Below are positions 12,609-63,889 of a stretch of DNA of 64,000 nt, one piece after another. Position 1 is the first letter of the stretch. Each line of letters begins with the position of its first letter. The stretch is from NCBI GenBank assembly GCA_036402915.1, contig DASWRY010000022.1, positions 19,629 through 83,628 on the forward strand, given 5' to 3'. The position numbers were made by a program, and so were the translations under genes. The notes under the pieces were generated by a model, which was not told the origin of the DNA, did no database searches, and saw only the letters and a list, made by a program, of their open reading frames with translations. The DNA is from Mycobacteriales bacterium (GTDB lineage Bacteria > Actinomycetota > Actinomycetes > Mycobacteriales > HKI-0501).

Positions 12609-13688
<1,080 letters not shown>

Positions 13689-41647: not shown

Positions 41648-41764
41648 CGCCACTCCCCGGTGTCCGCCCGCACGGAGCCTTGCACACACGGCCCGCGCTC
41701 CGAGGCGGTACGCGGCAACTGCTCCGCGTGATGTCGTCGGGGGAAGGGCCTGCGGAGAACGCTA

Positions 41765-41793
41765 GGGGGCGGGGGCAAAAAGGGGGGCGGGGG
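41765..41793 (+). other. canonical G-quadruplex motif G5-C-G5-CAAAAA-G6-C-G5
   Basis: G-runs occupy 41765-69, 41771-75, 41782-87 and 41789-93, in the spacer between the flippase stop (41871) and the GH26-like start (41647). Confidence 0.6.
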
Positions 41794-41870
41794 ACGGAGG
41801 ATCTGTGGACGAGAGTGGGAGGTGTGGACAGCGTTGACGGGGTGCCGCGGTGGGTGTAGATGAGGGCGAC

Positions 41871-43403: not shown

Positions 43404-44275
43404 GACGGTGTCCTCCCCCACCAGGCGGCGAGCCGGTCGTCGTACGGCCGGAAGTGCTCCTCGAGCTCCGCGCGGAGCTCCGCGGGCATCGGGCTCCGCG
43501 GCCGGGCGTTGTGCCGCGTGAAGCGCACACCGTCCACAGAGGACAGTTCCAGGAACGCCAGCACGTCCGCGAAGGCGGGTCCCGGGTCGTCGAAGAAGTC
43601 CTGGCTGTCCACAACGCACAGCCGGTCCCGGCCGAACAGGGACTCGAGGTGCTCGAGCTGGTCGACGTACTGTCCGCGCGTCACGTAGGCGTTGTGCCGC
43701 CAGTGGTGGCTGTCGTACGACGGGTCGGCGACCATGCGCTCGGCCTCCCCCGCGAGCCGGACAGGCTCCAGGGCGAGCGCGCGGGCGAACGTCTCCCGCT
43801 CGAACCCGCGCGCCCGCTCGTGGGTGTACGCCGAGTACGCACGCTCCACCGGGTCGCGCAGCAGGACGACCAGCCGCACGTCCGGCAGGTCGGCCGCGAT
43901 CCGTTCCGGCGCGAGCGGGTGGAACATGTAGTACGGGCTCGACTCCCCGGTGATCGCGACCCGGCGCACGCTCGGGAAGTGCCCGGCGTACCACGCCATC
44001 CCCTGGTGGTAGTTCACGTCGAAGTAGTGGACTCCCTTGTGGAGCACCGCGGGCGCCACCCCCGGGTGCTGCGCGAGGGTCTTCATCATCGAGGTGGTGC
44101 CGCACCGCTGGGCGCCGACGACGAGGAATCCGGGGCGGAGCCGCCACCGGTGTGTCCAGCGTCCGACGGTCCGCGTCACCGCGCGAGCCGTCCGACCGGC
44201 CCGTGCCCTCATCGCCGGCGGCCGCACCGGCGGCGCCCCCACCGCCGGCAGACCCGCCGTCCTCGGCTCGCTCAT
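43385..44275 (-). CDS. sulfotransferase (Sulfotransfer_1 / heparan-sulfate-type PAPS-binding motifs)
   Basis: ATG at 44275. The 5'-PSB loop reads VVGAQRCGTTSMMKTL. The 3'-PB motif reads VVLLRDPVERAYSAY. Confidence 0.8.
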   Translation of the reverse strand: MSEPRTAGLPAVGAPPVRPPAMRARAGRTARAVTRTVGRWTHRWRLRPGFLVVGAQRCGTTSMMKTLAQHPGVAPAVLHKGVHYFDVNYHQGMAWYAGHFPSVRRVAITGESSPYYMFHPLAPERIAADLPDVRLVVLLRDPVERAYSAYTHERARGFERETFARALALEPVRLAGEAERMVADPSYDSHHWRHNAYVTRGQYVDQLEHLESLFGRDRLCVVDSQDFFDDPGPAFADVLAFLELSSVDGVRFTRHNARPRSPMPAELRAELEEHFRPYDDRLAAWWGRTPSWRRER

Positions 44276-45501: not shown

Positions 45502-46907
45502 GGCGCGGCCCGCCGCGCGAGGTCGTTGCGCCACAGCAGCCCGACCGCGACGAGGGACACCGTGAGCGGCATCCCGATCGCCGGGTACACGAGCATGTAG
45601 AACAGCGGCAGGAGCACCGTCAGCCCACCGGCCATCCCGATCGCCGTGAAGTCCCGCCGGTACCTCCACGCCACGGCGAGGAAGAACGCGATGTAGCAGA
45701 ACGCGCCGACGAACCCGTTCTGCAGCAACAGGTTCCAGAGCTGACCGGTGCTGCCCACGTCCCGGTTGCCGCACTGCGGGCAGTTGTCGGTGGCGCCGAG
45801 GGCGATCGAACGGTCGTTGCCGACCGTCTGCCGGGTGCCGCCGTAGCCGAGCACCGGGGAGCGCAGCGCCGCCCGGAACGCGACGCCGTTCTGGTAGCTC
45901 CGCGTCTCGTTGCTGTGCGGGTTGTGGAGCCGGTAGCCCACGACCGTGCGGAGCGGCGACAGCGCGAACACCGCCGCCAGCACCAGCACCACCACCGACA
46001 CCAGCGCGACGAGGGTCAGCCGCCCGCGCACGGCGAACCGTGCCCCCAGGTACGCCACCGACAGCCCGAGCCCGATCCACAGTCCCCGGTTCAGCGAGTA
46101 CACCACCGGGTACAGCGACACCGCCACCACGGCGAGCGCGAAGAGCCTCCGCGGGGGGGAGGCCCGGACGATCCAACCGACGGCGAACCACGGCAGCAGG
46201 AGGCTGTAGCAGTAGCCCCAGGTGTTCGTGTACAGATACGGCGCCGCCGGCCGGCTGATCCCGCCGAGGACCTCGTGGACCTGGGCGAACTTCACCGTCG
46301 TGTTGCGGCCGACGAACGCGTTGTCCAGCAGCGCTCGCGGCAGGACGTGGGACAGCGGGGTCGCGAATCCCGCCTGCGGGTACAGCGCGCCGAGCAGTCC
46401 ACCCGCGACGGTCCACAGGAACAGCACGCCCAGCAGTGAGACGACGAACCGGCGGGGGACCTCGCGCTCCGACATCGTCCCGGCCCAGAGCATGATCACG
46501 GTGATCGCCACGTACTGGAGGACGCGGAGCGCGAACGCCGCGAGCTTCCCGGACCCGGTCGGCGGCATCGTGCCCGGCGCGGTCACGCCCAGCATCACCG
46601 CGCCGAGCACCACCCACACCAGCAGGAGGGCCCACAGCCCGAAGCCGGGCGGGAAGCGCAGACGGCCCCGCCGCGTGAGCTGCACGGCCATCGGCACGGC
46701 CGAGCCGATGAACGCGAACTCCGTCAGGCCGAGCGCCCACCAGACCGGGTATCCGGCCAGCAGCACCACGAGCGGCCACCCCGCCGGGATGCGGATCCCG
46801 CCGAGTCCGCGGGGCGCGGGCACGCGGCGCGCGGCACGCCCGGCGACCGTGTCCGTGCCGGTCCACCCGCGCAGCGGTGGCGAGGTGGGGGCGTGTGTCG
46901 CGGACAC
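45498..46907 (-). CDS. O-antigen ligase/polymerase-like membrane protein (Wzy-type)
   Basis: About 10-12 hydrophobic segments. YSLNRGLWIGLGL resembles the Wzy_C core. There is a large extracytoplasmic loop containing CPQC. Confidence 0.7.
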   Translation of the reverse strand: MSATHAPTSPPLRGWTGTDTVAGRAARRVPAPRGLGGIRIPAGWPLVVLLAGYPVWWALGLTEFAFIGSAVPMAVQLTRRGRLRFPPGFGLWALLLVWVVLGAVMLGVTAPGTMPPTGSGKLAAFALRVLQYVAITVIMLWAGTMSEREVPRRFVVSLLGVLFLWTVAGGLLGALYPQAGFATPLSHVLPRALLDNAFVGRNTTVKFAQVHEVLGGISRPAAPYLYTNTWGYCYSLLLPWFAVGWIVRASPPRRLFALAVVAVSLYPVVYSLNRGLWIGLGLSVAYLGARFAVRGRLTLVALVSVVVLVLAAVFALSPLRTVVGYRLHNPHSNETRSYQNGVAFRAALRSPVLGYGGTRQTVGNDRSIALGATDNCPQCGNRDVGSTGQLWNLLLQNGFVGAFCYIAFFLAVAWRYRRDFTAIGMAGGLTVLLPLFYMLVYPAIGMPLTVSLVAVGLLWRNDLARRAAP

Positions 46908-46919
46908 GGCGTCGGCCGC

Positions 46920-48845
46920 TCAGCGCGAACGGATGCGGTCGTCGGGGGTACGGCCTGCCGTGGTGCCGTCGGGAGGCGCCTCCGCCTCCGGGAGCACGAC
47001 CTCCGGCGGGTCCGTGGCCGGCTCGCCGAGGTCCTGGGTGTCGTCGTCCTGCAGAGGCGGCACGGGGTTGCCCGCGGCGTCGACGACCGCGGACGTGCCC
47101 ACGGCACCCGCCGGCCCGGCGGCGGAAGGATTCGGCGCGGAGACGGGGGCCTGCGGGGTCGGCGGCACGGGGCCCTGCGGCGACACCGGGCCCTGCGGCG
47201 ACACCGGGCCCTGCGGCGGCACCGGGGCCTGCGGCGGCACCACGCCCCCGTCCAGCACCCGCACCGCGACACCCGCCGGAACCGCCCGCTCGGCAGGCCG
47301 GGCGCGCCGCGTACGGGAGCGGCGGCGCGACCTGCCGAGCTGGCCGACGACGACCGCGGCGACGAGCCGCGCCCGTACCTCCGCGAGACTCCGGACCGCC
47401 TCCTCGAGCGCGGGCAGCCGGGCCCGCTTGGTCTCCACGACGACCAGCACCGCGTCGGCGTGGGGAGCGAGCACCTGCGCGTCCACGGAGACCTCCGGGG
47501 GCGGGGCCTCGAACAGCGCGTACCCCGAGCCCATGTGGAGCCGCGCCACCAGGTCCCGCACCCGGTCCTCGCGCATCTCCCGGGACGGCAGGCCGTCGCC
47601 GTCGCCGTCGGGGTCGCCGGGGCCGAGCAGCCGGACCCCCGGGGACACCGCGACCGCCGCGTCCGCGATCGCGACCTCGCCGCGCAGTACCTCGGCGAGT
47701 CCGCGTCCGGGCGGCACGTCGAACGCACGCAGCGTCCACGATCCCGGGTCCGCACACACGATCAGCACCGGGATGCCGAACCGGTCCAGCGCCGCGGCCA
47801 GGTTCGCCGTCACGAGCCCCGCGGCCTGGCCCGGCGCCGCCCCGCACGTCACGACGATCCGCGCCCGGTTGGCCGGCAGCCCGGCCGCGTCGAGGGCGGA
47901 CGCGAGCGACCCACGCAAGCGGCTGAAGTCCCGGGCGGCCGGACTCTGCGGTGTCGCGAGCGCCGGAGGTCCACCGCGCCGGAGGTCCAGCAGCACCGGG
48001 ATCCCGGTCCGGTCCGCCACCTCGTCCGCGCGGTGGACCCGCGTGTCCCTGCGGTCGAGGAGCAGCGCGAGCAGCAGTCCGAGCAGGAGGCCCCCGCCGA
48101 GCCCCGTTCCCCCGGCGAGCACCGGGTCCGGCGAGCTCGGACGGGTGGGGAGCGCGGCGGCGGTGATGACCGAGCCGGGGTTCGGCTCGCCGGCCCGCAG
48201 GGTGGAGAGGCGCGCGCTGATCTGGCCGAGGTTGCTCTCGGCCACGTTGAGCTGCGCCTGCCCGCGGCGGGCGTCGGCGGAGGACGGCGGGAGGCCCGCG
48301 ATCGTGTCGGACAGCTGCTGCAGCTGCCCCAGCAGGGTGCGCTGCTGGCTCTCCAGCGCCGTGACCTGCGCGGCGATGTCGTCGTGGACCTTCGCGGCGC
48401 GCTGGTCCAGGTATGCGGTGGCGAACGCCTGCGACCCCGCCCGCGCCGTCGCGGGCTGTCCCGCGGAGTACGCGATGTCGAGCACCTGCGTGTTCGGGGG
48501 CACGCTCACCGCGACGCGCGCGGCGAGGTCGGCCGCGGAGAGCCCGGTCGTGATCGCGTGGCGCGCACGGTCCGCGACGACGAGGGACCGGACCAGCTGC
48601 GCCTCGGTGTCCATGTTGAGGCCGGAGATGGTGCGGGCACCGGACTGCGGCTGGTCCGCGGTGGTGCCGGTCGCCTGGACGAGGACCGAGGTCGTCGCTG
48701 TGTACACACGGTGCTGACGCACCGTGACCGCCGCCGTGACGGCCAGCGCCAGCAGGACCACCGCCACGATCACCCACCACCGGCGACGGATCCAGCCGGT
48801 GTAGTCGGCGATCGTGCGCGAGCCCTCGTCGTTCAACGATTCCAT
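46920..48845 (-). CDS. polysaccharide co-polymerase (Wzz N-terminal domain) fused to a degenerate BY-kinase-like P-loop domain and a Pro-rich tail
   Basis: Order of elements: Wzz-type TM1 (WWVIVAVVLLALAV), coiled-coil periplasmic region, TM2 (GGGLLLGLLLALLL). A CpsD/CapB-like domain follows, with IVVTCGAAPGQAAGLVTANLA in place of the ...PGEGKS... Walker A. Confidence 0.75.
   Translation of the reverse strand: MESLNDEGSRTIADYTGWIRRRWWVIVAVVLLALAVTAAVTVRQHRVYTATTSVLVQATGTTADQPQSGARTISGLNMDTEAQLVRSLVVADRARHAITTGLSAADLAARVAVSVPPNTQVLDIAYSAGQPATARAGSQAFATAYLDQRAAKVHDDIAAQVTALESQQRTLLGQLQQLSDTIAGLPPSSADARRGQAQLNVAESNLGQISARLSTLRAGEPNPGSVITAAALPTRPSSPDPVLAGGTGLGGGLLLGLLLALLLDRRDTRVHRADEVADRTGIPVLLDLRRGGPPALATPQSPAARDFSRLRGSLASALDAAGLPANRARIVVTCGAAPGQAAGLVTANLAAALDRFGIPVLIVCADPGSWTLRAFDVPPGRGLAEVLRGEVAIADAAVAVSPGVRLLGPGDPDGDGDGLPSREMREDRVRDLVARLHMGSGYALFEAPPPEVSVDAQVLAPHADAVLVVVETKRARLPALEEAVRSLAEVRARLVAAVVVGQLGRSRRRSRTRRARPAERAVPAGVAVRVLDGGVVPPQAPVPPQGPVSPQGPVSPQGPVPPTPQAPVSAPNPSAAGPAGAVGTSAVVDAAGNPVPPLQDDDTQDLGEPATDPPEVVLPEAEAPPDGTTAGRTPDDRIRSR
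47164..47235 (-). repeat. 18-nt tandem repeat x4 encoding (PVSPQG)-type units in the PCP tail
   Basis: The unit g[ag]caccgggccctgcggc occupies 47164-47181, 47182-47199, 47200-47217 and 47218-47235. Confidence 0.85.
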
Positions 48846-48926
48846 GTGGCCTCGTTCCGCGGGGCGAAGAGCGGGGCGAAGTACAGCCTCGGGTCAGCAT
48901 AGGCGCGCGGCTCCACTCTCCCGGGG

Positions 48927-48941: not shown

Positions 48942-48976
48942 GTACGGAGCGCCTCGCGCGCGGTTAGCCTGGCGCG

Positions 48977-49876
48977 GTGCGCGTCGGGTACCTCGTGCAG
49001 AGCCACCGCGATCCGGAGCAGGTCGCGCGGCTCGTCCGGACGCTGCGCCGCGGGAGCCCGGACGGTGTCGTCCACGTCAGCCACGACTTCTCGTCGTCAC
49101 CACTGGATCTCACCGGTGTACCGGGAGTGATCGTCCGCCCCGCGAAGGGCGGCTATGCCGACTTCAGCCACGTGCGGCGGTACCTCGACGCGGTGGACGA
49201 CCTCGCCGCCGACCCGCCCGCCTGGGTCGTCGTCCTCACCGGCCAGGACTACCCGATCCGGCCGCTCGCCGAGGCGGAGGAGGACCTCGCCACCGGGGAC
49301 GCGGACGGGTACCTCGAGTACTTCCCCGCCCTCGACGCGGCCCGCAGCACGTGGCCGGTGCGCCGCGCCCGCTCGCGGTACCTGTTCCGCCACCGGCGCC
49401 TGATGCCGCTGTCGCCGGCGGCGCAACGCCGGCTGCGTGCGGTGCAGGCCCTCAACTACGTGCAGCCGCTGGTACGCGTCCACGTCACGCCCGCGCTGAC
49501 CGTCGGGATCCGGCGGCGGTCACCGTTCGGGCCGGGCTTCGAGCTGTACGGCGGCAGCGCGTACCACTCGCTGTCCTGGCCGTGCGTGGCGTACCTCCGG
49601 CAGTTCTGCGCCGCGCACCCGGAGATCCCGCGGTACTACGCCTCGACCCTGTCACCGGTGGAATCCATCGTGCAGACGATCCTGGTGAACAGCGGCCGTT
49701 TCCGGCTCGTCGACGACTGCCGGCGGTACTTCGACTTCCGCGGCAGCACGTTCAACCACCCGCGCGTCCTCGGCGTGGAGGACCTCCCCCGGGCACTCGC
49801 GAGCGGCGCCGACTTCGCCCGGAAGATCGACGACCCGGCCGTGCTCGACGCCCTGGACGCGCTGGTGCACCGGTGA
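48977..49876 (+). CDS. glycosyltransferase family 14 (Core-2/I-branching 'Branch' domain)
   Basis: Seen: MRVGYLVQSHRDPEQVARLVRTL...VVHVSHD, LTGQDYPIRPL and YGGSAYHSLSWPCVAYL, which follow the Branch-domain pattern. Confidence 0.7.
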   Translation: MRVGYLVQSHRDPEQVARLVRTLRRGSPDGVVHVSHDFSSSPLDLTGVPGVIVRPAKGGYADFSHVRRYLDAVDDLAADPPAWVVVLTGQDYPIRPLAEAEEDLATGDADGYLEYFPALDAARSTWPVRRARSRYLFRHRRLMPLSPAAQRRLRAVQALNYVQPLVRVHVTPALTVGIRRRSPFGPGFELYGGSAYHSLSWPCVAYLRQFCAAHPEIPRYYASTLSPVESIVQTILVNSGRFRLVDDCRRYFDFRGSTFNHPRVLGVEDLPRALASGADFARKIDDPAVLDALDALVHR

Positions 49877-49917: not shown

Positions 49918-50021
49918 GCGTCTCCTGGGTACGGCGTGGCCGGGGGACGGCGTGCTCTTCCTCCCGGTCCCGCCGACAGCGCTCGGCGTAGGGTCCCGGC
50001 ACGGAGCAGGGAGGCGGCGAC

Positions 50022-50471
50022 GTGGTCATGCTCTTCGTCGGTTCGAGCGGCGGCCACCTGGCGCAACTGCTGGCCCTCCGCCCGTGGTGGGAGGACCGGG
50101 AACGGTACTGGGTCACGTTCCGGACCCCGGACGCCGAGTCGCTCCTCGCGGGCGAGCACGTCGACTGGGCGTACCACCCCACCACCCGCAACGTCCACAA
50201 CCTGCTGCGCAACACCGTCCTGGCGCGCAGGGTCCTCCGCCGCCGGCATCCCGACGCGATCGTCTCGACGGGCGCGGCGGTGGCGCTGCCGTTCTTCGTG
50301 CTGGGCCGCCTGGCCCGCATCCCCACCGTGTACCTCGAGGTCTGCGACCGGATCGAGACGCCGACGCTGACGGCCCGGCTCTGCCGTCCGTTCACCACCG
50401 CGATGCTGGTGCAGTGGGAGGAGCAGCAGGCGCTGTACCCCGGGTCCACCGTCGTCGGACGGCTGCTGTGA
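50022..50471 (+). CDS. Alg14-like / PssD-type glycosyltransferase membrane-associated subunit
   Basis: GTG at 50022 lies 7 nt after GGGAGG. Seen: LFVGSSGGHLAQLL..., HPDAIVSTGAAVALPFF and VYLEVCDRIETPTLTARL, matching the Alg14/PssD pattern. Confidence 0.75.
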   Translation: MVMLFVGSSGGHLAQLLALRPWWEDRERYWVTFRTPDAESLLAGEHVDWAYHPTTRNVHNLLRNTVLARRVLRRRHPDAIVSTGAAVALPFFVLGRLARIPTVYLEVCDRIETPTLTARLCRPFTTAMLVQWEEQQALYPGSTVVGRLL

Positions 50472-52863: not shown

Positions 52864-54048
52864 TTGTCCGACGTCACGCTCGACGGTGCCGCCCTGGACG
52901 ACCTCGAACTGCTCCTCGGCGGCGCGTACGCGCCCCTGGACCGGTACCTCTCCGACGCGGAGGCAGCGGCCGGCACGCTGCCCGACGGGACCCCCGTCCC
53001 GCTCCGGCTGACGCGCCCGGCCGAGGGCGAGGCCGTCCTGCGAGACCCGGAGGGCGCGCCGGTGGCCCGGCTCTGCGCGGACGGCCGCGTCGAGGCGGTC
53101 GCGCCGCGGGAGGTCGTCACGTTCGGCCGGCTGCGGCGTCCCGCCCGGGAGGTCGCGGCGGAGGTCACCGGCCCCGTGCTCGGGGTACCGGTCGACGGGC
53201 CGCTCTCCCGCCGCGCGCTGGACCGGATCACGGCGGCCGGACTGCCGGTGCTGCTGCTCCCGCTCGTCGGCGCCGACCGGCACGGCGACCCCGACGCGCT
53301 GATCCGGATGACGCTCGCCGCCGCCGGGGAGCTGCCGGAGGGCACGCGCGTCGTCGCGGTGCCCCTGTCCCGGCGCCCCGAGCCGGTCGAGTCCCTGCTG
53401 CGCGCGCACGTGGCCGCGGCGTACGGCGCGACCGAGGTGCTGTCCCCCGCCGGTGACGACCCGTCCCCCGACTACCCCGCCGCGATCGCCGCGGAGCTCG
53501 CGCGTCCGCGCGGGCTGACCGTGTTCTTCACCGGCCTCTCGGGCTCCGGCAAGTCCACCGTCGCCCGCGCGCTGGCCGGGCGTCTCGCCGAGCGCGGCGA
53601 CCGCACGGTGAGCCTGCTCGACGGTGACGTGGTCCGCCGCAGCCTGTCCGCGGGCCTCGGGTTCTCCCGGGAGGACCGGGACCGCAACGTCACCCGCATC
53701 GGCTGGGTGGCCGCCGAGGTCACCCGGCACGGCGGGCTCGCGATCTGCGCGCCGATCGCCCCGTACGCGTCGGTGCGCGCGGAGGTCCGGCGCCTCGTCG
53801 AGCGGTACGGCGACTTCGTGCTGGTCCACGTGGCGACTCCGCTCGAGGAGTGCGAGCGGCGGGACCGCAAGGGCCTGTACGCGAAGGCCCGGGCCGGCGA
53901 GATCCCCGCGTTCACCGGCATCTCCGATCCGTACGAGGTACCGGACGACGCGGACCTCGCGATCGACACCACCCACCTGACCGTTGCCGAGGCGACCGAG
54001 GCCGTGCTGCGGCTGCTCGTCGACCGCGGCCTGCTGCGGGAGAGCTGA
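52864..54048 (+). CDS. cysC: adenylyl-sulfate (APS) kinase with N-terminal degenerate ATP-sulfurylase-like domain
   Basis: TTG at 52864 lies 7 nt after GAGGAG. The N-terminal ~200 aa follow a Sat pattern (DLELLLGGAYAPLDRYL; LLLPLVGADRHGD). VDGPLSRRAL replaces the QxRNPxHRxH loop. The C-terminal half has FTGLSGSGKST, LDGDVVR and FSREDRDRN. Confidence 0.8.
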   Translation: MSDVTLDGAALDDLELLLGGAYAPLDRYLSDAEAAAGTLPDGTPVPLRLTRPAEGEAVLRDPEGAPVARLCADGRVEAVAPREVVTFGRLRRPAREVAAEVTGPVLGVPVDGPLSRRALDRITAAGLPVLLLPLVGADRHGDPDALIRMTLAAAGELPEGTRVVAVPLSRRPEPVESLLRAHVAAAYGATEVLSPAGDDPSPDYPAAIAAELARPRGLTVFFTGLSGSGKSTVARALAGRLAERGDRTVSLLDGDVVRRSLSAGLGFSREDRDRNVTRIGWVAAEVTRHGGLAICAPIAPYASVRAEVRRLVERYGDFVLVHVATPLEECERRDRKGLYAKARAGEIPAFTGISDPYEVPDDADLAIDTTHLTVAEATEAVLRLLVDRGLLRES

Positions 54049-54050
54049 CC

Positions 54051-55019
54051 GTGGACTGGACGATGGCCGTGGCAGGCTTCGTCGTCGGCATCGTCGTGGG
54101 GCTGACGGGCATGGGCGGCGGCGCGCTGATGACGCCGATGCTCGTGCTCGTGTTCGGCATCCAGCCGCTCGCCGCGGTGTCGTCGGACCTCCTGGCGTCG
54201 TTCGTCATGAAGCCCGTCGGCAGCCTCGTGCACCTCCGCCGCGGCACGGTGCACCTGAAGATGGTCGGCTGGCTCATGCTCGGCTCGGTGCCGTCGGCCT
54301 TCGTGGGCGTGCTGATCCTCAAGACGCTCGGCGACAGCGCCGGGGTGCAGTCCGCCGTGAAGATCGCCCTCGGCGTCGCCCTGCTGCTGGCGACGGCCGG
54401 GCTGATCGGCAAGGCGTACCTGCAGATGCGCGACACGGCCCGGCGCCGCCGCGGGGAGCTGCCGCCCGCGCCCCCCGCGAACGCTCCCGTGCCAGTCCGC
54501 CCGCTCGCGACCGTGCTCGTCGGCGTCCTCGGCGGCCTGGTCGTCGGCATGACGTCGGTCGGCTCCGGGTCGCTGATGATCATCGCGCTGATGGCGCTGT
54601 ACCCCGCGCTCTCCGCGTCGCGCCTCGTCGGGACGGACCTGGTCCAGGCCGTGCCGCTGGTGGGCGCGGCCGCGTTCGGGCACGCGATGTTCGGCGACCT
54701 GCAGCTCGACGTCACCGGGGCGCTGCTCGTCGGTGCGATCCCGGGCGTGTACCTGGGCTCGCGGATCTCCTCCCGCGCGCCGCAGGGCGTCGTCCGGCGG
54801 GCCCTGACCCTCGTGCTGATCGCCTCGGGCCTCAAGCTCCTCGGCGTCGGCACGGTCGCGCTCGGCTGGGCGCTCCTCGCGGTGTGCGTGGCCGGGCCGC
54901 TGCTGTGGGGCTGGGCACGCACGCGCCAGGGCCTGGCGCCGCTGGCCCGCCTCGAGCGGCGCGGACCCGTGGGCGCGGCACACTCCAGAGACGACCAGGC
55001 CCCGGTCACCACACGGTGA
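54051..55019 (+). CDS. TauE/SafE family sulfite/organosulfonate-type anion exporter (DUF81)
   Basis: GTG at 54051 lies 2 nt after the cysC stop. There are two repeated halves with GLTGMGGGALMTP and GMTSVGSGSLMI motifs and about 8 TM segments. Confidence 0.8.
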   Translation: MDWTMAVAGFVVGIVVGLTGMGGGALMTPMLVLVFGIQPLAAVSSDLLASFVMKPVGSLVHLRRGTVHLKMVGWLMLGSVPSAFVGVLILKTLGDSAGVQSAVKIALGVALLLATAGLIGKAYLQMRDTARRRRGELPPAPPANAPVPVRPLATVLVGVLGGLVVGMTSVGSGSLMIIALMALYPALSASRLVGTDLVQAVPLVGAAAFGHAMFGDLQLDVTGALLVGAIPGVYLGSRISSRAPQGVVRRALTLVLIASGLKLLGVGTVALGWALLAVCVAGPLLWGWARTRQGLAPLARLERRGPVGAAHSRDDQAPVTTR

Positions 55020-55025
55020 CCGGGG

Positions 55026-55042
55026 CCCCGGACGTACCGGGG
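55026..55042. terminator. short hairpin between convergent TauE-family and cysN genes
   Basis: ccccgg [acgta] ccgggg lies in the 24-nt spacer. Confidence 0.3.
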
Positions 55043-55043
55043 G

Positions 55044-56309
55044 TCAGCCCGCCTGGACCACGATCGCCGCGGCGACGGTGCGGTTGGTGGCCTCGTCCAC
55101 GAGGATGAAGCCGCCCGTGGAGCGGTTCCGGCGGTACTCGTCCACGAACAGCGGCTGGGTGGTGCGCAGGGTCACCCGGCCGATCTCGTTGAGCCGCAGT
55201 GCGCCGGGGTGCTCGTCCCGGTGCAGGGTGTTGACGTCCAGCCGGTACGCGATGTCGCGGACGACCGTGCGCACGGTCCGGGTGGTGTGCTTGAGGGTGT
55301 ACTTGCGGCCGGGCTCGAGCGCGGCCTGCTCGTCCATCCAGCAGATCATCGCCTCGACGTCCTGCGCGGAGTGCGGGGCGTTGTGCGGGCGGCAGATCAT
55401 GTCCCCCCGGGACACGTCGAGCTCGTCGGCGAGGCGTACCACGACCGACATCGGCGGGAACGCCTCGTCCACCGGCCCGTCCGCGGTGTCGATGGCCTCG
55501 ATCCGGGTGGTGAACCCGGACGGGAGCACCATCACCTCGTCGCCCGGCTTCATCACGCCACCGGCGACCGTGCCGGCGTACCCGCGGTAGTCCGGGTGGG
55601 CCGCCGACTGCGGCCGGATGACGTACTGGACCGGGAACCGGACGTCGACCAGGTTCCGGTCGGAGGCGACGTGGACGTTCTCCAGGTGGTGCAGCAGGGA
55701 CGGCCCGTCGTACCAGGGCATGTTGTCCGACCGGCTGACGATGTTGTCCCCGTGGAGCGCCGAGATCGGCAGGACCGTCAGGTCGGGCACGTCCAGCTTG
55801 GTGGCGAACGCGGTGAACTCGTCCTTGATGGCCTCGAACACGTCCTGGGAGTAGTCGACCAGGTCCATCTTGTTCACGGCCAGCACCAGGTGCGGCACCC
55901 GCAGCAGGGTGACCAGGAACGCGTGCCGCCGCGACTGCTCCACCAGCCCCTTGCGGGCGTCCACCAGCACGATGGCGAGGTCCGCGGTGGAGGCGCCGGT
56001 GACCATGTTGCGGGTGTACTGGATGTGCCCCGGGGTGTCGGCGATGACGAACTTGCGCCGCGGGGTGGCGAAGTACCGGTACGCCACGTCGATCGTGATG
56101 CCCTGCTCCCGCTCGGCCCGCAGGCCGTCGGTGAGCAACGCCAGGTTCGTGTACTCGTCGCCGCGGTCGCGGCTGGTCCGCTCCACCGCGTCCAGCTGGT
56201 CGGTGAAGATCGACTTCGAGTCGTACAGCAGACGCCCGATGAGGGTCGACTTGCCGTCGTCGACCGAGCCCGCCGTGGCGAACCGCAACATGTCCATGTC
56301 GTGAGCCAT
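55044..56309 (-). CDS. cysN: sulfate adenylyltransferase subunit 1 (GTPase), no fused APS-kinase domain
   Basis: Seen: GSVDDGKSTLIGRLL, DTPGH and NKMD. About 420 aa, ending after the EF-Tu-like beta-barrel domains. Confidence 0.9.
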   Translation of the reverse strand: MAHDMDMLRFATAGSVDDGKSTLIGRLLYDSKSIFTDQLDAVERTSRDRGDEYTNLALLTDGLRAEREQGITIDVAYRYFATPRRKFVIADTPGHIQYTRNMVTGASTADLAIVLVDARKGLVEQSRRHAFLVTLLRVPHLVLAVNKMDLVDYSQDVFEAIKDEFTAFATKLDVPDLTVLPISALHGDNIVSRSDNMPWYDGPSLLHHLENVHVASDRNLVDVRFPVQYVIRPQSAAHPDYRGYAGTVAGGVMKPGDEVMVLPSGFTTRIEAIDTADGPVDEAFPPMSVVVRLADELDVSRGDMICRPHNAPHSAQDVEAMICWMDEQAALEPGRKYTLKHTTRTVRTVVRDIAYRLDVNTLHRDEHPGALRLNEIGRVTLRTTQPLFVDEYRRNRSTGGFILVDEATNRTVAAAIVVQAG

Positions 56310-56311
56310 GC

Positions 56312-57217
56312 CTAGAAGTACCCCTCGCGCTTGCGGTCCTCCATGGCGGACTCGCTGACCTTGTCGTCCCCGCGGGTGGCCCCGCGTTCGGTGAGCCGGG
56401 TCGCGGCGATCTCCGCGATGACCTTCTCGGTGGTGTCCGCGTCCGAGGCCACCGCCGCGGTGAGCGTCGCGTCCCCGACCGTGCGGTAGCGCACCGACGC
56501 GGTGAACACCTCGTCACCCTCACCCGGGACCGCGAACTCGTTGGCGGCCATCAGCATCCCGTCCCGCCGGAACACCTCCCGGGTGTGCGCGAAGTAGATC
56601 GACGGGATCTCGATCCCCTCGGCGTGGATGTACTCCCAGATGTCGAGCTCGGTCCAGTTCGAGAGCGGGAACACCCGGATGCTCTCGCCCAGGTGCACCC
56701 GGCCGTTGTAGAGGTTCCACAGCTCCGGCCGCTGGTTCTTCGGGTCCCACTGGCCGAACTCGTCCCGGAAGGAGAACACCCGCTCCTTCGCCCGCGCCTT
56801 CTCCTCGTCGCGGCGCGCACCCCCGAACAGCGCGTCGAACCGGTGCTTCTCGGCGGCCTCGAGCAGCACCGGGGTCTGGATCCGGTTCCGCGACCCGCCC
56901 GGCTCCTCCCGCACCAGCCCCCGCTCGAGCGCCTCGGGCACGCTGGCCACGATCAGCTGCACGCCCAGCTCGGCGACCCGCTTGTCGCGGAACTCGAGCA
57001 CCTCGGGGAAGTTGTGCCCGGTGTCCACGTGCATCACCGGGAACGGGATCGGCGCCGGCGCGAACGCCTTCTCGGCGATCCGCAGCATCACGATCGAGTC
57101 CTTGCCGCCGGAGAACAGCAGGCACGGACGCTGCATCTCCGCCGCGACCTCACGGAAGACGTGGACCGCCTCGGCCTCGAGGGTGTCCAGCTGGCTGAGC
57201 CGGTAGTTCGATGTCAT
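56312..57217 (-). CDS. cysD: sulfate adenylyltransferase subunit 2
   Basis: Seen: LLFSGGKDSIVML (PP-loop), HVDTGHNFPE and PLSNWTELDIW. The start overlaps the cysQ stop (ATGA). Confidence 0.9.
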   Translation of the reverse strand: MTSNYRLSQLDTLEAEAVHVFREVAAEMQRPCLLFSGGKDSIVMLRIAEKAFAPAPIPFPVMHVDTGHNFPEVLEFRDKRVAELGVQLIVASVPEALERGLVREEPGGSRNRIQTPVLLEAAEKHRFDALFGGARRDEEKARAKERVFSFRDEFGQWDPKNQRPELWNLYNGRVHLGESIRVFPLSNWTELDIWEYIHAEGIEIPSIYFAHTREVFRRDGMLMAANEFAVPGEGDEVFTASVRYRTVGDATLTAAVASDADTTEKVIAEIAATRLTERGATRGDDKVSESAMEDRKREGYF

Positions 57218-57999
57218 CGGGGGTACTGGTCTCTCATCCGGTCGAGGAGCGCGTCGGCGACCGGCGCCGCGGCGACGAGCAGGTCGGGCAGGAGCGGGTC
57301 GGGCTGGTTGTACCGGAGCGGCGAACCGTCGAGGCGGCAACATCGCAGGCCCGCGGCCACGGCCACGGCGACCGGCGCGGCGGAGTCCCACTCGTACTGG
57401 CCGCCGCCGTGCACGTACGCGTCGACCTCGCCGAGGACGACGGCGGACACCTTCACCCCGGCGGACCCCATCGGCACCAGCTCGGCGCCGAGGTCCCCGG
57501 CCAGCGCGGCGACGAACTCGGGTGGGCGGGTGCGGCTCACCGCCAGGCGGAGGGGGCCGTCGGCGCGCGGCGGCACCACCGGCGGGGCGTCGGTCGCGAG
57601 CGTGGTGCCGCGCGCGGGCATCGCCACGGCGCCGGCGGTCAGCGAGCCGCCGGACCACAGCGCCACGTGGACAGCCCAGTCGCTGCGGCCCTCCTCGGAG
57701 AACTCCCGCGTGCCGTCGAGCGGATCCACGATCCACACCCGGTCGGCCGACACCCGGCCCGCCGGGTCGGCGCCCTCCTCGGACAGCACCGCGTCGCCGC
57801 GGCACAGCTCCGCGAGCCGGGCCACCAGGTACTCGTGCGCGGCCCGGTCCCCCGCCGCCTTCAGTGCGGCCGGGTCCGCGAAGCCCACGTCGGCCCGCAC
57901 CCGGAGCAGGAGCGCGCCCGCCTCGTCCGCGAGCCGCCGGGCGAGCGCAGCGTCACCTGCGACACGACCGAGCGGTCGTGTCGTCGGATCGGTCTGCAT
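57214..57999 (-). CDS. cysQ: 3'(2'),5'-bisphosphate nucleotidase (PAP phosphatase, inositol monophosphatase family)
   Basis: Seen: EEGA..., WIVDPLDGTREF and YEWDSAAP. The ATG overlaps the stop of the upstream sugar transferase (TGATG). Confidence 0.75.
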   Translation of the reverse strand: MQTDPTTRPLGRVAGDAALARRLADEAGALLLRVRADVGFADPAALKAAGDRAAHEYLVARLAELCRGDAVLSEEGADPAGRVSADRVWIVDPLDGTREFSEEGRSDWAVHVALWSGGSLTAGAVAMPARGTTLATDAPPVVPPRADGPLRLAVSRTRPPEFVAALAGDLGAELVPMGSAGVKVSAVVLGEVDAYVHGGGQYEWDSAAPVAVAVAAGLRCCRLDGSPLRYNQPDPLLPDLLVAAAPVADALLDRMRDQYPR

Positions 58000-59510
58000 C
58001 AGTAGGCCCCCGAGGTCCTGACCAGGGCGGTGATCGTGCGGAGCAGGATCACCAGGTCGAATGTCAGCGACCAGTTTTCCACGTACCGCAGGTCGAGTCG
58101 CACGGAGTCCTCCCACGAGAGGTCCGAACGGCCGCTGACCTGCCACAACCCGGTCAGTCCGGGCTTCACCACGAGCCGCCGGCGGACGTCCTCCGGGTAC
58201 TGCGCCACCTCGCACGGCAGGGGCGGGCGCGGCCCCACCAGGCTCATCTGGCCGCGCAGGACGTTGAGGAACTGCGGGAGCTCGTCCAGGGAGTAGCGGC
58301 GGAGCCACCGGCCCAGAGGCGTGACGCGGGGGTCGTCCCGCATCTTGAACAGCACGCCGTCGGCCTCGTTGTGCCCGTTCAGCTCCTCCTGGTGCTCCTC
58401 CGCGCCGGAGTACATCGTCCGGAGCTTGTAGAGCACGAACTCGCGCCCGTCCTTCCCCACCCGGACCTGCCGGAAGAATGCGGGACCCGGGGTCGCCCGC
58501 CGTACGACGAGGGCCAGGACGAGGAGCAGCGGCCCGGCGACGAGCAGCGCGAGCGCCGCGAGGACCCGGTCGAACATGCCCTTGAGCAGCCGCCGGCTCC
58601 CGGACAGCTCGGCGTGCTCGACGTGCAGCATCGGCAGGCCGTCCACCGGCCGGATCGTGGTCCGGGGCCCCGCGACGTCGAGGAGCGCGGTGGCGACCAC
58701 GAGGTCGGTACCGGTCCGCTCGAGCGCCCAGGTCAGCCGGCGCAGGGCGTTCGCGTCCATCTCCGGGCAGGCGAGGACCGCCACGGTGTCGGCCCCGGAT
58801 TCCCGCACCGCCCGGTCCACGTCGTCGAACGTGCCGAACACGGCCACGTCCACGTCCACCATCCGCTCTCGCTGCGGCCGGTGCGGCGGCAGGCACGCGC
58901 CCACGATCTCCATGCCGTGGTACCGCTCGTGGCGGAGCTGGCGGCAGAAGTTCGCGGCCGCCCGTTCGTACCCGAGCACGACCACGCGCCGCATGCACTC
59001 CCCGCGGTTGCGCAGCCGGAACAGCCGCCGCCGCAGGGCGAAGCGGGCGGCGAGCCCGCCCACCGTGAGCAGCGGCAGCGCGACGAACACGTAGCCGCGG
59101 GCGATCTGGAGGTCGGCGGCGTACGACACGATCGCGAACGCCGCGGTCAGCCCGACACCGGCGTTGAGCACCCGGCGGTACTCCTCGTTGCCGACGAAGA
59201 GGAAGCGCCGCTCGTACGCGTGCGCGAGCAGCAGCGCCACCGTCCAGCCGAGCGGCAGGAGCAGGCTCACGGCGACGTACGGCTCGCTGGCCGGTGTGAT
59301 GCGCCAGAACCGGGCGGCGAACGCCACCACGCCCGCGAGGACGCCCGCCCCGACGTCCACGGCGGCGGCCTGCGCGAGGTAGGCCCGTTGCCACGAGCCC
59401 CCGGCCCGGGCAGCGTGCCGCGCCAGCGCGCCGACGCGGAGATCCCCCCGCCTGTGCTCCCCCGGCCGTGCCGCCGGTCTCTCCGGTTCCGCGACGCCGA
59501 ACGTCGTCAC
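57999..59510 (-). CDS. polyprenyl-phosphate glycosyl-1-phosphate transferase (WbaP/CpsE-type priming enzyme)
   Basis: GTG at 59510 lies 6 nt after GGAGGGGG. Four to five N-terminal TM segments and a central Rossmann-like region precede the Bac_transf domain (FRQVRVG, YKLRTM, DELPQFLNVLRGQMSLVGPRP). Confidence 0.85.
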   Translation of the reverse strand: MTTFGVAEPERPAARPGEHRRGDLRVGALARHAARAGGSWQRAYLAQAAAVDVGAGVLAGVVAFAARFWRITPASEPYVAVSLLLPLGWTVALLLAHAYERRFLFVGNEEYRRVLNAGVGLTAAFAIVSYAADLQIARGYVFVALPLLTVGGLAARFALRRRLFRLRNRGECMRRVVVLGYERAAANFCRQLRHERYHGMEIVGACLPPHRPQRERMVDVDVAVFGTFDDVDRAVRESGADTVAVLACPEMDANALRRLTWALERTGTDLVVATALLDVAGPRTTIRPVDGLPMLHVEHAELSGSRRLLKGMFDRVLAALALLVAGPLLLVLALVVRRATPGPAFFRQVRVGKDGREFVLYKLRTMYSGAEEHQEELNGHNEADGVLFKMRDDPRVTPLGRWLRRYSLDELPQFLNVLRGQMSLVGPRPPLPCEVAQYPEDVRRRLVVKPGLTGLWQVSGRSDLSWEDSVRLDLRYVENWSLTFDLVILLRTITALVRTSGAY

Positions 59511-59848
59511 AGCGCACCCCCTCCGTGGCGCTGTCCGGTGGGTCCCAGGCCGTGCCACCGCACCGATCGGGAGTCAGACCGTAGGTGCGCCGCCGGTACA
59601 CGGTCCGTGCTCTGTCGCGGTTCCGACGGAACACTTGACCGATCGGTAGGGGAAACCACGCCGTGGCTCCACTGTGACGCTCTGTAGCGATGGTCGGACC
59701 GTTTGTTCAGTTTGGGGACACGATCGAGCCAGCCTAGCCATCCGAACGACGTCCCAGAATGCGCCGAGCGGCCGGAAGATGCGCGCTCGAGACCCAAATC
59801 GGACGGAATTACGGAGGGTAGCCACAGCCCGTGCCGTGGAGGTGACGC

Positions 59849-60427
59849 TCAGCTTCCGTGGAACGCGTTCTGGGCCGCCTCGAGGCCCTGCGCCACGAGC
59901 GCCTCGACCGCGTCCGCGGCGTGGTCCACGACCAGCGGCAGGTCCTTGCGCTCGGCCGCGGAGAAGTCCCGGAGAACGAAGTCGGCGGGGTCCTGGCGGC
60001 CCGGCGGGCGGCCGATGCCGACACGGACCCGGAGGTACCCGGGCCCGCCGGCGGACCCCGAGATCGACCGGAGGCCGTTGTGGCCGTTGTCGCCGCCGCC
60101 GAGCTTCAGGCGGACCGTGCCGTAGGGCAGGTCGAGCTCGTCGTGGACCACGATCACGTGGTCCAGCGGCACCTTGTGGAACTGCCGGAGTCCCGCCACC
60201 GGGCCGCCCGAGGAGTTCATGTACGAGCGCGGCTTGGCGAGGACCACGCGACTGCCCGCGAGCCGGCCCTCCACGACGTCCGCGCGCCCCTTGTGGCTCT
60301 TGAAGCGCCCCCCGACCCGCTCCGCGAGCAGGTCCGCGACCATCGCACCGGCGTTGTGGCGGTTGCCCGCATACGACGGGCCGGGGTTCCCCAGACCCAC
60401 GACGAGATACGGCTGCTCGTCGGTCAT
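59849..60427 (-). CDS. pth: peptidyl-tRNA hydrolase
   Basis: Seen: [21 protein letters not shown] and GHNGLRS. Confidence 0.9.
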
Positions 60428-60465
60428 CAGGGGATCCCCGGCCCGTCGGTGGGAGTGCTACGAGG

Positions 60466-61104
60466 TCAGGACGCGGTGCCGGCGTCGCCCGCCGCCTGCG
60501 GGGCGGTGTGCTCGACGCCCAGACCGGCCTCGGAGGAGGCCAGGTCGGCCTCGACCGCCTCGGCGCTCGGCGCGGCGACGACACCCACGACCAGCGTCTC
60601 GGGCTCGGTCACGAGCGTGGTGCCGGCCGGCAGGCGGACATCGGAGGCGGCGATGTGGCTGCCGACCTCGAGGCCCGAGATGTCGACCTCCACCGAGTCG
60701 GGGATGTGGGTCGCCTCGGCCTCGACGGTCAGCGTGTTGAGGTCCTGGTTCACCAGGCCGCCCGCGGCGGGCTCGCCGGTGAGGACGATCGGGAGCTCGA
60801 CGGTGACCTTCTCGCCGCGGCGGACGAGCAGCAGGTCGACGTGGTCGAAGGTGCCCTTGATCGGGTCGCGCTGGATCGCCTTCGGCAGGGCCAGCTCGTC
60901 GCCGCCCTCGAGTGCCACGGTGAGCAGCGTGTTGATGCCGCCCCGGATCGCGAAGGCGAAGTCGCGGGCCGGCAGGGCGATGTGCCGCGGCTCGGTGCCG
61001 TGGCCGTAGAGGACGGCAGGGATCTTCCCGGCCCGACGGGTACGGCGGGCGCCGCCCTTGCCGAACTCGGTGCGGGGCTCGGCGGAGATACGGACCTCGG
61101 ACAC
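60466..61104 (-). CDS. rplY: 50S ribosomal protein L25 / general stress protein Ctc form
   Basis: GTG at 61104 follows GAGGAG. Seen: GKGGARRTRRAGKIPAVLYGHG, and a C-terminal acidic/Ala extension. Confidence 0.9.
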   Translation of the reverse strand: MSEVRISAEPRTEFGKGGARRTRRAGKIPAVLYGHGTEPRHIALPARDFAFAIRGGINTLLTVALEGGDELALPKAIQRDPIKGTFDHVDLLLVRRGEKVTVELPIVLTGEPAAGGLVNQDLNTLTVEAEATHIPDSVEVDISGLEVGSHIAASDVRLPAGTTLVTEPETLVVGVVAAPSAEAVEADLASSEAGLGVEHTAPQAAGDAGTAS

Positions 61105-63810: not shown

Positions 63811-63889
63811 CTCCCGGGGTAGGAATCGAACCTACGTCGCTTGTCCAGGTTCAAAGCCTGGCGGCCCCTGCCAACAGAGCAACCCGGGA
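63811..63889 (-). tRNA. tRNA-Gln(UUG)-like gene, atypically long (79 nt by hand fold)
   Basis: Hand fold: acceptor TCCCGGG/CCCGGGA, anticodon stem CCAGG/CCTGG with loop CTTTGAA, T-arm GTAGG-TTCGATT-CCTAC. One extra nucleotide precedes the anticodon stem and the variable region is 9 nt. Confidence 0.6.

What the first reader, a model, noticed from the sequence alone, without database searches (positions are those of the whole stretch)
55044..59510. Priming glycosyl-phosphate transferase translationally chained to cysQ-cysD-cysN
The four minus-strand genes have essentially no spacers.

- The transferase stop and the cysQ start share TGATG (57997-58001).
- The cysQ stop and the cysD start share ATGA (57214-57217).
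- The cysD stop is 2 nt from the cysN start.

The first committed step of repeat-unit assembly is thus stoichiometrically tied to sulfate activation and to removal of PAP, a potent inhibitor of sulfotransferases. cysN here lacks the fused APS-kinase domain found in CysNC of M. tuberculosis; the kinase is supplied from the opposite arm. The operon is preceded by a 340-nt AT-richer leader/promoter region (59511-59848) that I could not assign to any known riboswitch.
Basis: seen in the sequence. Interest (0 to 1): 0.6.

Follow-up and report, generated by a model that had tools for sequence, protein, structure and literature searches.

The report
Sugar-primer gene fused to sulfate-activation operon
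Four back-to-back genes (a sugar-chain primer, a PAP phosphatase and the two-subunit sulfate activator) do form one tight unit inside a sulfated-polysaccharide gene island, but the sulfate activator is the cell's only copy, sitting at its usual housekeeping site, so this is a moderately interesting variant and not a dedicated supply line.

Summary
On the minus strand, a priming transferase (PGT, 59510-57999), cysQ (57999-57214), cysD (57217-56312) and cysN (56309-55044) are joined by TGATG, ATGA and a 2-nt spacer. A strong hairpin follows cysN. All four identities are confirmed. cysN has no kinase domain. cysC and a TauE permease lie on the opposite arm. The 338-nt leader matches no Rfam family, is not unusually structured and is not conserved beyond the genus.

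The interpretation needs revising.
- Overlapped junctions are the norm in this island: 5 of 7 other junctions are overlapped or 2 nt apart. The cysQ/cysD/cysN junctions are equally tight in relatives that lack the PGT.
- cysDN is the only ATP sulfurylase in this genome and in most relatives.
- glmU-prs-rplY-pth-cysQ-cysD-cysN is a conserved housekeeping arrangement. A PGT sits between pth and cys(Q)DN in at least 19 sampled genomes from four families, usually beside sulfotransferase genes.

I read it as a dual-use housekeeping sulfate-activation operon joined to the PGT of a wps-1-like island (Actinoplanes missouriensis, 2026).

The parts
59849..60427 (-). pth (peptidyl-tRNA hydrolase). It is the last gene of the housekeeping run glmU-prs-rplY-pth that lies upstream of the operon.
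   Evidence: Pfam Pept_tRNA_hydro 213 bits and TIGR00447 191.7 bits. rplY, prs and glmU were confirmed.
59511..59848 (-). 338-nt pth-PGT spacer, taken as promoter plus 5' leader. It contains no recognisable riboswitch.
   Evidence: No Rfam match at gathering score. The only match at E<=10 is hya, 17.6 bits, E 1.8, and it lies inside pth. The fold z-score is -0.11. Identity to the same-genus G003 spacer is 55%, and the region cannot be aligned beyond the genus. There is no sigma-70 consensus site.
59731..59736 (-). Candidate actinobacterial -10 hexamer TAGGCT (TAnnnT type). This is an inference only.
   Evidence: It aligns with TACGCT in G003, next to the conserved block GGCGCATTC. No transcription start data are available.
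57999..59510 (-). Large polyprenyl-phosphate glycosyl-1-phosphate transferase (the priming transferase, PGT), 503 aa. It is the only Bac_transf-type PGT in the genome.
   Evidence: Bac_transf 218.9 bits and TIGR03025 404.5 bits, above the 295.55 cut-off. The start is supported by an ATG at the homologous site in G003. tblastn against the genome finds a single copy.
57214..57999 (-). cysQ, 3'-phosphoadenosine-5'-phosphate (PAP) phosphatase, 261 aa. Its start overlaps the PGT stop (TGATG).
   Evidence: PDB 5DJF (M. tuberculosis CysQ) matches at E 3.4e-71 over residues 10-258, with the DPLDGTREF and WDSAA motifs conserved. Pfam Inositol_P 105.8 bits.
56312..57217 (-). cysD, the small subunit of ATP sulfurylase, 301 aa. 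Its start overlaps the cysQ stop (ATGA). It is the only copy in the genome.
   Evidence: TIGR02039 434.8 bits. One genomic match over the cut-off.
55044..56309 (-). cysN, the GTPase subunit of ATP sulfurylase, 421 aa, with no APS-kinase domain. It starts 2 nt after the cysD stop.
   Evidence: TIGR02034 578.9 bits. It matches only positions 21-432 of the 632-position CysNC model. Single copy.
54998..55027 (.). Perfect 13-bp GC-rich hairpin between the convergent cysN and TauE genes, probably a two-way terminator. The TauE stop codon lies inside it.
   Evidence: Sequence read. Fold energy -43.5 kcal/mol, z -4.82, with 0 of 200 shuffles folding as well. It has no U-tract, so the simple terminator scan missed it.
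52864..54048 (+). cysC, APS kinase with a degenerate ATP-sulfurylase/PUA-like N-terminal domain. This is the PAPS-forming step supplied from the opposite arm.
   Evidence: APS_kinase 191.1 bits at residues 226-378. Only weak PUA_2 and ATP-sulfurylase matches at the N-terminus. Single copy. TTG 52864 is the only in-frame start.
54051..55019 (+). TauE/SafE-family anion permease, a likely sulfate importer. It starts 2 nt after cysC.
   Evidence: TauE 148.2 bits. Junction TGACCGTG.

Best explanation
This is the lineage's single, housekeeping cysQ-cysD-cysN sulfate-activation operon. It sits at its conserved place just downstream of glmU-prs-rplY-pth. The island's priming glycosyl-phosphate transferase (PGT) gene has been joined to the front of it.

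How it most likely works:
- One promoter in the 338-nt pth-PGT spacer probably drives a single PGT-cysQ-cysD-cysN transcript, which ends at the hairpin at 54998-55027.
- The 1-nt and 4-nt overlaps and the 2-nt gap let ribosomes pass from gene to gene.
- CysDN makes APS. APS is the branch point.
- In one branch, CysH (APS-reductase type) and SirA, encoded elsewhere, reduce it for cysteine and methionine.
- In the other branch, CysC, encoded on the opposite arm, makes PAPS for at least two island sulfotransferases. CysQ then removes the PAP by-product.

The operon is therefore dual-use. Because it carries the cell's only ATP sulfurylase, it must be expressed whenever sulfate is the sulfur source. 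Either the primer enzyme is made constitutively too, or unseen internal promoters exist.

Shown: gene identities, junctions, copy numbers, synteny. Inferred: one transcript, translational coupling, the flux split.
For: Junctions and gene identities:
- Junctions read directly.
- Family matches.
- CysQ orthology to PDB 5DJF.

Sole copy of the sulfate activator:
- One CysD over the cut-off in a genome that is 95.9% complete.
- No Sat. The only PF01747 signal is 17 bits, inside cysC.
- cysD, cysN, cysC, TauE and the PGT are all single copy by tblastn.
- Most relatives also have one cysD. Ten relatives were checked and have no full Sat, only partial matches covering positions 2-124 of 212.

The reductive branch is elsewhere:
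- CbiX, sirA and cysH lie on C51.
- CysH carries the CC...CxxC Fe-S motif and a C-terminal ECGLH.
- cysH is unlinked to cysD in 9 relatives.

Housekeeping position:
- glmU-prs-rplY-pth-cysQ-cysD-cysN without any PGT in G116, G065, G019 and G140.
- The same run with a PGT in G003, G001, G015, G027 and G010.

Recurrence:
- PGT and cysD lie on the same strand within about 1 kb in 17 sampled genomes of families f1, f8, f11 and f13. Two more carry a 2.4-kb insert (coordinates).

End of the unit:
- Hairpin of -43.5 kcal/mol, z -4.8, followed by a convergent gene.
Against: - There is no transcript evidence.
- No consensus promoter or terminator was detected.
- The genome is a 100-contig draft, about 96% complete, so a second sulfurylase in the missing part cannot be strictly excluded. 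The 100%-complete family member G001 also has only one.
- Junction tightness is not conserved everywhere. In the same-family G001 the estimated gaps are 60, 93 and 45 nt, and f11 genomes have 118-238 nt between PGT and cysD. That leaves room for internal promoters.
- In A. missouriensis the sulfate-activation gene next to wps-1 is transcribed separately from the cluster (PMC13390465).
Confidence: 0.68

Rival explanations
1. cysQDN here is a dedicated, sulfation-specific supply module. Translational coupling to the PGT fixes the stoichiometry between repeat-unit initiation, sulfate activation and PAP removal.
For: - Overlapping stop and start codons.
- cysQ, a PAP phosphatase, is only needed when PAPS is consumed.
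- The operon lies inside an island with cysC, a permease and at least two sulfotransferases.
- The PGT-cysQDN order recurs in four families.
Against: - cysDN is the only ATP sulfurylase, while an APS-dependent reductive pathway exists elsewhere.
- The same cysQDN module, with the same tight junctions, sits after pth in relatives that lack both the PGT and the island.
- Overlaps are the default junction type in this island, and they do not set protein ratios.
Confidence: 0.1
2. Adjacency without shared control. The PGT gene merely landed between pth and cysQ. cysQDN keeps its own promoter inside the PGT 3' end, or is also read from it, so sulfate activation is expressed independently of the primer enzyme.
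For: - An essential housekeeping function would be risky to tie to a glycan operon.
- Relatives have 45-240-nt gaps at the equivalent junctions.
- AMIS_7390, next to wps-1 in A. missouriensis, is under different transcriptional control from the cluster (PMC13390465).
Against: - The TGATG overlap is identical in the same-genus genome, and a different family has a 0-nt gap.
- The gene order is kept in four families.
- No promoter-like site was found in 54800-60600, although that scan is weak for actinomycetes.
Confidence: 0.2
3. The 338-nt leader is a new sulfur- or nucleotide-sensing riboswitch that controls the operon.
For: - A long, AT-richer spacer.
- A few short blocks are shared with G003.
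Against: - No Rfam match.
- Folding is no better than shuffled sequence, z -0.11.
- Only 55% identity within the genus, with no alignable core in other genera that have the same gene order.
Confidence: 0.04

Closest known systems
wps-1 cluster of Actinoplanes missouriensis (AMIS_7280-7380, with adjacent AMIS_7390). It is a putative sulfated exopolysaccharide cluster needed for sporangium formation (PMC13390465, 2026).
   Same: It has the same parts list: a GT2, two sulfotransferases of different families, a kinase-like protein, Wzx, Wzy, Wzz, and an adjacent two-domain sulfurylase/APS-kinase-family gene. Actinoplanes and Symbioplanes contigs carry a 57%-identical PGT next to homologues of the GT2, Alg14-like, kinase-like and sulfotransferase genes.
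   Different: In those Actinoplanes and Symbioplanes loci no cysQDN lies within 10 kb of the PGT. The paper reports that the neighbouring sulfate-activation gene is transcribed separately. Here the PGT is fused to cysQ-cysD-cysN next to pth. Sulfation of the product has not been shown chemically in either case.
PAPS-supply operon inside the sulfated capsule cluster of Cobetia marina KMM 1449 (cysNC, cysD, cysQ and a sulfate permease; PMC11766843).
   Same: Sulfate uptake, activation and PAP removal genes are embedded in a polysaccharide cluster that carries sulfotransferases.
   Different: The Cobetia cluster is from a Gram-negative bacterium and uses an ABC-transporter (kps) pathway. Its cysN and cysC are fused, and the PAPS genes form their own operon that is not joined to the priming enzyme. 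I did not check whether that copy is the cell's only one.
Mycobacterium tuberculosis sulfate activation: cysDNC plus CysQ (Rv2131c; PDB 5DJF).
   Same: A single CysDN feeds both the APS-reductase (CysH) reductive branch and PAPS-dependent sulfotransferases. CysQ is a clear orthologue.
   Different: M. tuberculosis fuses the kinase to CysN, and by my recollection its cysQ is unlinked. Here cysN has no kinase domain, cysQ leads the operon, and a PGT precedes it.
Vibrio vulnificus brp exopolysaccharide and cysDNTC co-regulation by BrpT and c-di-GMP (PMC6113621).
   Same: Exopolysaccharide production and sulfate activation are expressed together.
   Different: In Vibrio the link is a shared regulator acting on separate operons, with PAPS acting as a signal. 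Here the link is physical fusion into one operon.

Membership tests
Heterodimeric ATP sulfurylase CysD/CysN | The CysD subunit matches the curated CysD model above its cut-off. | tested here: met
   TIGR02039 434.8 bits against a cut-off of 396.6; NF003587 451 bits.
Heterodimeric ATP sulfurylase CysD/CysN | The CysN GTPase subunit matches the curated model and lies adjacent to cysD. | tested here: met
   TIGR02034 578.9 bits against a cut-off of 336.1. It starts 2 nt after cysD.
Heterodimeric ATP sulfurylase CysD/CysN | GTP-dependent formation of APS from ATP and sulfate. | not testable with these tools
   This needs an enzyme assay.
Bifunctional CysNC (M. tuberculosis type) | A C-terminal APS-kinase domain fused to CysN. 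| tested here: not met
   The 421-aa protein covers only positions 21-432 of the 632-position model NF004035, and it scores 692 bits against a cut-off of 715. The APS_kinase domain is found only at 52864-54048 on the plus strand.
CysQ PAP phosphatase | An inositol-monophosphatase fold with the metal-binding motifs, and orthology to a characterised CysQ. | tested here: met
   Inositol_P 105.8 bits. PDB 5DJF matches at E 3.4e-71 over the full length, with DPLDGTREF and WDSAA aligned.
CysQ PAP phosphatase | A score above the NCBIfam equivalog cut-off (TIGR01331). | tested here: not met
   96.8 bits against a cut-off of 228.8. My inference is that this model follows proteobacterial CysQ, so membership rests on the M. 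tuberculosis orthologue instead.
Large polyprenyl-phosphate hexose-1-phosphate transferases (WbaP/WcaJ-like PGTs) | A C-terminal Bac_transf catalytic domain with an N-terminal membrane and CoA_binding_3-like region. | tested here: met
   Bac_transf 218.9 bits at residues 310-497. CoA_binding_3 scores 23.9 bits, just under its cut-off of 25. TIGR03025 404.5 bits against 295.55.
Large polyprenyl-phosphate hexose-1-phosphate transferases (WbaP/WcaJ-like PGTs) | Assignable sugar specificity through the WcaJ (glucose) or WbaP (galactose) equivalog. | tested here: not met
   TIGR03023 scores 324 bits against 410.75. TIGR03022 scores 308 bits against 403. The sugar transferred is unknown.
wps-1-type sulfated polysaccharide cluster (Wzx/Wzy pathway) | Wzx, Wzy and Wzz plus sulfotransferases and glycosyltransferases in one locus. 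| tested here: met
   - Wzx: Polysacc_synt 28.6 bits.
- Wzy_C: 24 bits, below its cut-off.
- Wzz: 31 bits.
- Two sulfotransferase domains, a GT2, and Alg14/Alg13-like halves.
- Gene order is colinear with homologues in Symbioplanes and Actinoplanes.
wps-1-type sulfated polysaccharide cluster (Wzx/Wzy pathway) | The product is a sulfated polysaccharide. | not testable with these tools
   This needs chemical analysis. It is also unverified for A. missouriensis (PMC13390465).
Known riboswitch or leader families (Rfam) | A covariance-model match at gathering score in 59511-59848. | tested here: not met
   There is none in the whole window apart from two tRNAs. Nothing meaningful appears at E<=10.

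The most novel reading that the evidence does not exclude
In several poorly studied actinomycete families the sulfated glycan is not an optional exopolysaccharide. It is a constitutive envelope polymer. Its only priming transferase shares one transcript with the cell's only sulfate-activating enzyme, next to core housekeeping genes. Sulfur assimilation and glycan sulfation are therefore co-expressed and compete at the APS branch point. On this reading the pth-proximal cysQDN locus was the seed around which the whole sulfation island assembled.
Probability: 0.25. Interest if true: 0.55.

Novelty: new variant of a known kind. Interest (0 to 1): 0.36.

Why it matters
Sulfated polysaccharides were long considered rare in bacteria outside cyanobacteria, and a putative actinomycete cluster (wps-1) was described only in 2026.

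This locus and its relatives show a recurring design in four actinomycete families: the priming transferase is placed directly in front of the organism's only sulfate-activation genes. If they are co-transcribed, primary sulfur metabolism and surface-glycan synthesis are hard-wired together. That predicts simple, testable phenotypes. A polar primer mutation should cause cysteine auxotrophy on sulfate. Sulfate limitation should change the envelope.

It also gives a practical genomic marker (PGT-cysQ-cysD-cysN after pth) for finding sulfated-glycan producers. It is not a new mechanism or a new protein family.

Tried and rejected
- **Riboswitch in the leader: rejected.** There is no Rfam match at gathering score or at E<=10. 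The fold z-score is -0.11. Nothing aligns beyond the genus.
- **Consensus promoter and terminator scan.** It found nothing in 54800-60600. That is uninformative for high-GC actinomycetes, and the hairpin after cysN only showed up on folding.
- **A second sulfurylase: none found.** I searched for Sat (PF01747) and for CysD paralogues in the genome itself and for Sat in ten relatives.
- **Dedicated, horizontally acquired cysDN: rejected.** CysD is 77-80% identical to the pth-linked single copies of other families, about the same as to its own family member G001. Its position is syntenic.
My Pfam scan gave no hit, so I leave it unconfirmed.
- **Genome-wide junction statistics.** I did not attempt these because no gene caller was available. 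I used the island's own junctions as the baseline.


Full report
**1. The observation**

| Gene | Start | Stop | Junction with the previous gene |
|---|---|---|---|
| Priming transferase (PGT) | GTG 59510, Shine-Dalgarno-like GGAGGGGG upstream | TGA 58001-57999 | 338-nt spacer after pth |
| cysQ | ATG 57999 | TGA 57216-57214 | TGATG, 1-nt overlap |
| cysD | ATG 57217 | TAG 56314-56312 | ATGA, 4-nt overlap |
| cysN | ATG 56309 | TGA 55046-55044 | 2-nt spacer |

The spacer back to the upstream gene covers 59511-59848. Its GC content falls to about 0.64-0.68.

**2. Gene identities**

- PGT: Bac_transf 219 bits; TIGR03025 404 bits, above its cut-off.
- cysQ: an Inositol_P-family protein. Its best solved relative by a wide margin is M. 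tuberculosis CysQ, a PAP phosphatase (PDB 5DJF, E 3.4e-71, metal-binding motifs aligned).
- CysD: TIGR02039 435 bits. CysN: TIGR02034 579 bits.
- CysN is 421 aa and stops where the kinase domain of CysNC would begin.
- The upstream gene is pth, preceded by rplY, prs and glmU.

**3. Surroundings**

A frame-specific GC analysis and Pfam scans show that the operon closes one side of a polysaccharide island.

Minus strand:
- Wzz-like (46920-48893)
- Wzy-like (45498-46919)
- an unassigned protein (44272-45498)
- a Sulfotransfer_1 protein (43385-44290)
- a Wzx-type flippase (41871-43400)
- an unassigned protein (40619-41761)
- a PKD-domain protein (37635-40640)

Plus strand:
- an unassigned protein (48968-49876)
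- an Alg14-like half (49992-50471)
- an Alg13-like half fused to a sulfotransferase
- a GT2
- an APS kinase with a degenerate sulfurylase-like N-terminus (52864-54048)
- a TauE-family permease (54051-55019)

The permease converges on cysN. Between them lies a perfect 13-bp GC hairpin (54998-55027; -43.5 kcal/mol, z -4.8), probably a two-way terminator.

The kinase is supplied from the opposite arm, and the leader is AT-richer.

**4. Are the tight junctions special?**

No. Within the same island I found:
- GTGA overlaps at Alg14 to Alg13-sulfotransferase, at Alg13-sulfotransferase to GT2, and at Wzy to the next gene;
- an ATGA overlap before the sulfotransferase gene;
- a 2-nt gap between cysC and TauE.

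In relatives, the ATGA or GTGA overlap at cysQ/cysD and the -1 to 3-nt junction at cysD/cysN recur whether or not a PGT is present.

The junctions fit co-translation. It is established that 1-nt and 4-nt overlaps are the commonest operon junctions in prokaryotes. They do not show a fixed stoichiometry.

**5. Is cysDN a dedicated copy?**

No.
- The draft genome (3.39 Mb, 100 contigs, 95.9% complete) has one CysD above the cut-off and no Sat-type sulfurylase. The only PF01747 signal is 17 bits, inside cysC.
- cysD, cysN, cysC, TauE and the PGT are each single copy.
- On contig C51 lie CbiX, a sulfite reductase and cysH, with no cysDN nearby.
- CysH has the CC...CxxC iron-sulfur motif and the C-terminal ECGLH. 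By established knowledge this is the APS-reductase type, so APS made by CysDN is the branch point between reduction and PAPS formation.

The same holds in relatives.
- Most of the 134 cysD-bearing genomes among 151 sampled from the order have one copy.
- cysH is unlinked to cysD in nine relatives.
- No full Sat exists in the ten relatives checked.

**6. Synteny**

I fetched 20 cysD neighbourhoods and compared them by tblastn.

- Without a PGT: glmU-prs-rplY-pth-cysQ-cysD-cysN occurs in G116, G065, G019 (family f17) and G140 (f6).
- With a PGT between pth and cysQ: G003 (same genus, identical TGATG), G001 (same family) and G015 (f13, TGAATG).
- With a PGT and a 2.4-kb insert: G027 and G010 (f8).
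- With a PGT directly before cysD: G013 (f11).

I then crossed the cysD and PGT coordinates from the two order-wide searches. They lie on the same strand within about 1 kb in 17 genomes:
- f1: G000, G003, G001
- f13: G015, G089, G075, G124, G047, G031
- f8: G086, G043
- f11: G122, G111, G087, G013, G045, G132

Two more genomes carry the insert. Several of the neighbourhoods I fetched also carry homologues of the island's sulfotransferases, GT2, Wzx, Wzy or Wzz (G015, G027, G013).

The PGT-cys(Q)DN order is therefore a recurrent, conserved design, built on a housekeeping locus.

**7. The leader**

- There is no Rfam family at gathering score anywhere in the window except two tRNAs. Nothing meaningful appears at E<=10 in 59400-59950.
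- The putative 5' UTR folds no better than shuffles, z -0.11.
- Against the same-genus spacer, identity is 55% with a few short shared blocks. The G003 spacer also carries an extra GC-rich repetitive stretch of about 456 nt.
- Spacers from four other genera with the same gene order cannot be aligned.
- A TAnnnT-type -10 candidate (TAGGCT, 59736-59731; TACGCT in G003) is the only promoter lead, and it is inference only.

**8. Mechanism proposed**

One promoter in the spacer gives a PGT-cysQ-cysD-cysN transcript that ends at the hairpin. CysDN makes APS for two routes:
- CysH and SirA, leading to cysteine and methionine;
- CysC, then PAPS, then the island sulfotransferases.

CysQ recycles PAP. 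TauE probably imports sulfate.

Because the only sulfurylase is on this transcript, the primer enzyme is likely to be expressed whenever sulfate is assimilated, unless internal promoters exist.

Gene content, junctions, copy number and synteny are shown. Co-transcription, coupling and flux partition are inferred.

**9. Comparison with known systems**

- The island matches the wps-1 cluster of Actinoplanes missouriensis (PMC13390465). That cluster has a GT2, two sulfotransferases, a kinase-like protein, Wzx, Wzy and Wzz, and a neighbouring sulfurylase/APS-kinase-family gene. Deleting that neighbouring gene blocks sporangium formation, and it is transcribed separately from the cluster.
- Cobetia marina has a cysNC-cysD-cysQ-permease operon inside a sulfated capsule cluster (PMC11766843).
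- M. tuberculosis uses one CysDN(C) for both branches.
- Vibrio vulnificus co-regulates an exopolysaccharide and cysDNTC through a shared activator (PMC6113621).

What is different here is the physical fusion of the primer gene to the sole, housekeeping cysQDN operon beside pth.

**10. Verdict**

This is a new variant of a known kind, of modest interest. The interest lies mainly in a clean, testable link between primary sulfur metabolism and glycan priming, and in a genomic marker for sulfated-glycan producers.

Noticed in passing
window 52864-54048 (+): The APS kinase carries an N-terminal region of about 200 aa that gives only weak PUA_2 and ATP-sulfurylase matches. This looks like a degenerate, probably non-catalytic sulfurylase-like domain. 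Partial PF01747 matches (positions 2-124 only) were found in G015, G116 and G065; whether they too sit next to a kinase domain was not checked.
   Followed up: partly
window 54998-55027: The TauE-family permease gene ends inside the 13-bp hairpin that also follows cysN, so a single structure probably terminates both convergent units. It has no U-tract, and the simple terminator scan missed it.
   Followed up: partly
L019 (G003) 12950-13290, minus strand: The same-genus genome has an extra insert of about 456 nt right after pth. It is very GC-rich and made of reiterated CCCGCCGTGCCCGCG-like units. The window has no such insert, so the pth-PGT spacer is 787 nt there against 338 nt here.
   Followed up: no
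G000 contig C51, about 40467-44155 (L006 2468-6159): CbiX-type chelatase (minus strand), sulfite reductase and an APS-reductase-type cysH form the reductive sulfur cluster, with no cysDN. It is followed by unrelated carotenoid, GT2 and amine-oxidase genes.
   Followed up: partly
whole genome G000: tblastn finds only one Bac_transf-type priming transferase in the 3.39-Mb genome. The island's PGT may therefore be the only enzyme of this class in the cell. WecA/MraY-type enzymes were not searched.
   Followed up: partly
L025 and L026 (G019): One Micromonospora-like genome has two cysQ-cysD-cysN modules. One is at the pth locus and the other is elsewhere, which is a natural case of a possibly dedicated second copy.
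   Followed up: no
L032 (G013); also G045 and G132 from the coordinates: In family f11 some genomes have the PGT directly upstream of cysD (118-238 nt) with no cysQ between them, so cysQ is dispensable at this position.
   Followed up: no
My Pfam scan at E<=0.001 returned no family for it.
   Followed up: partly
window 63811-63889 (-) and 17339-17421 (-): Two tRNA genes were found by Rfam. The first lies just upstream of glmU.
   Followed up: no
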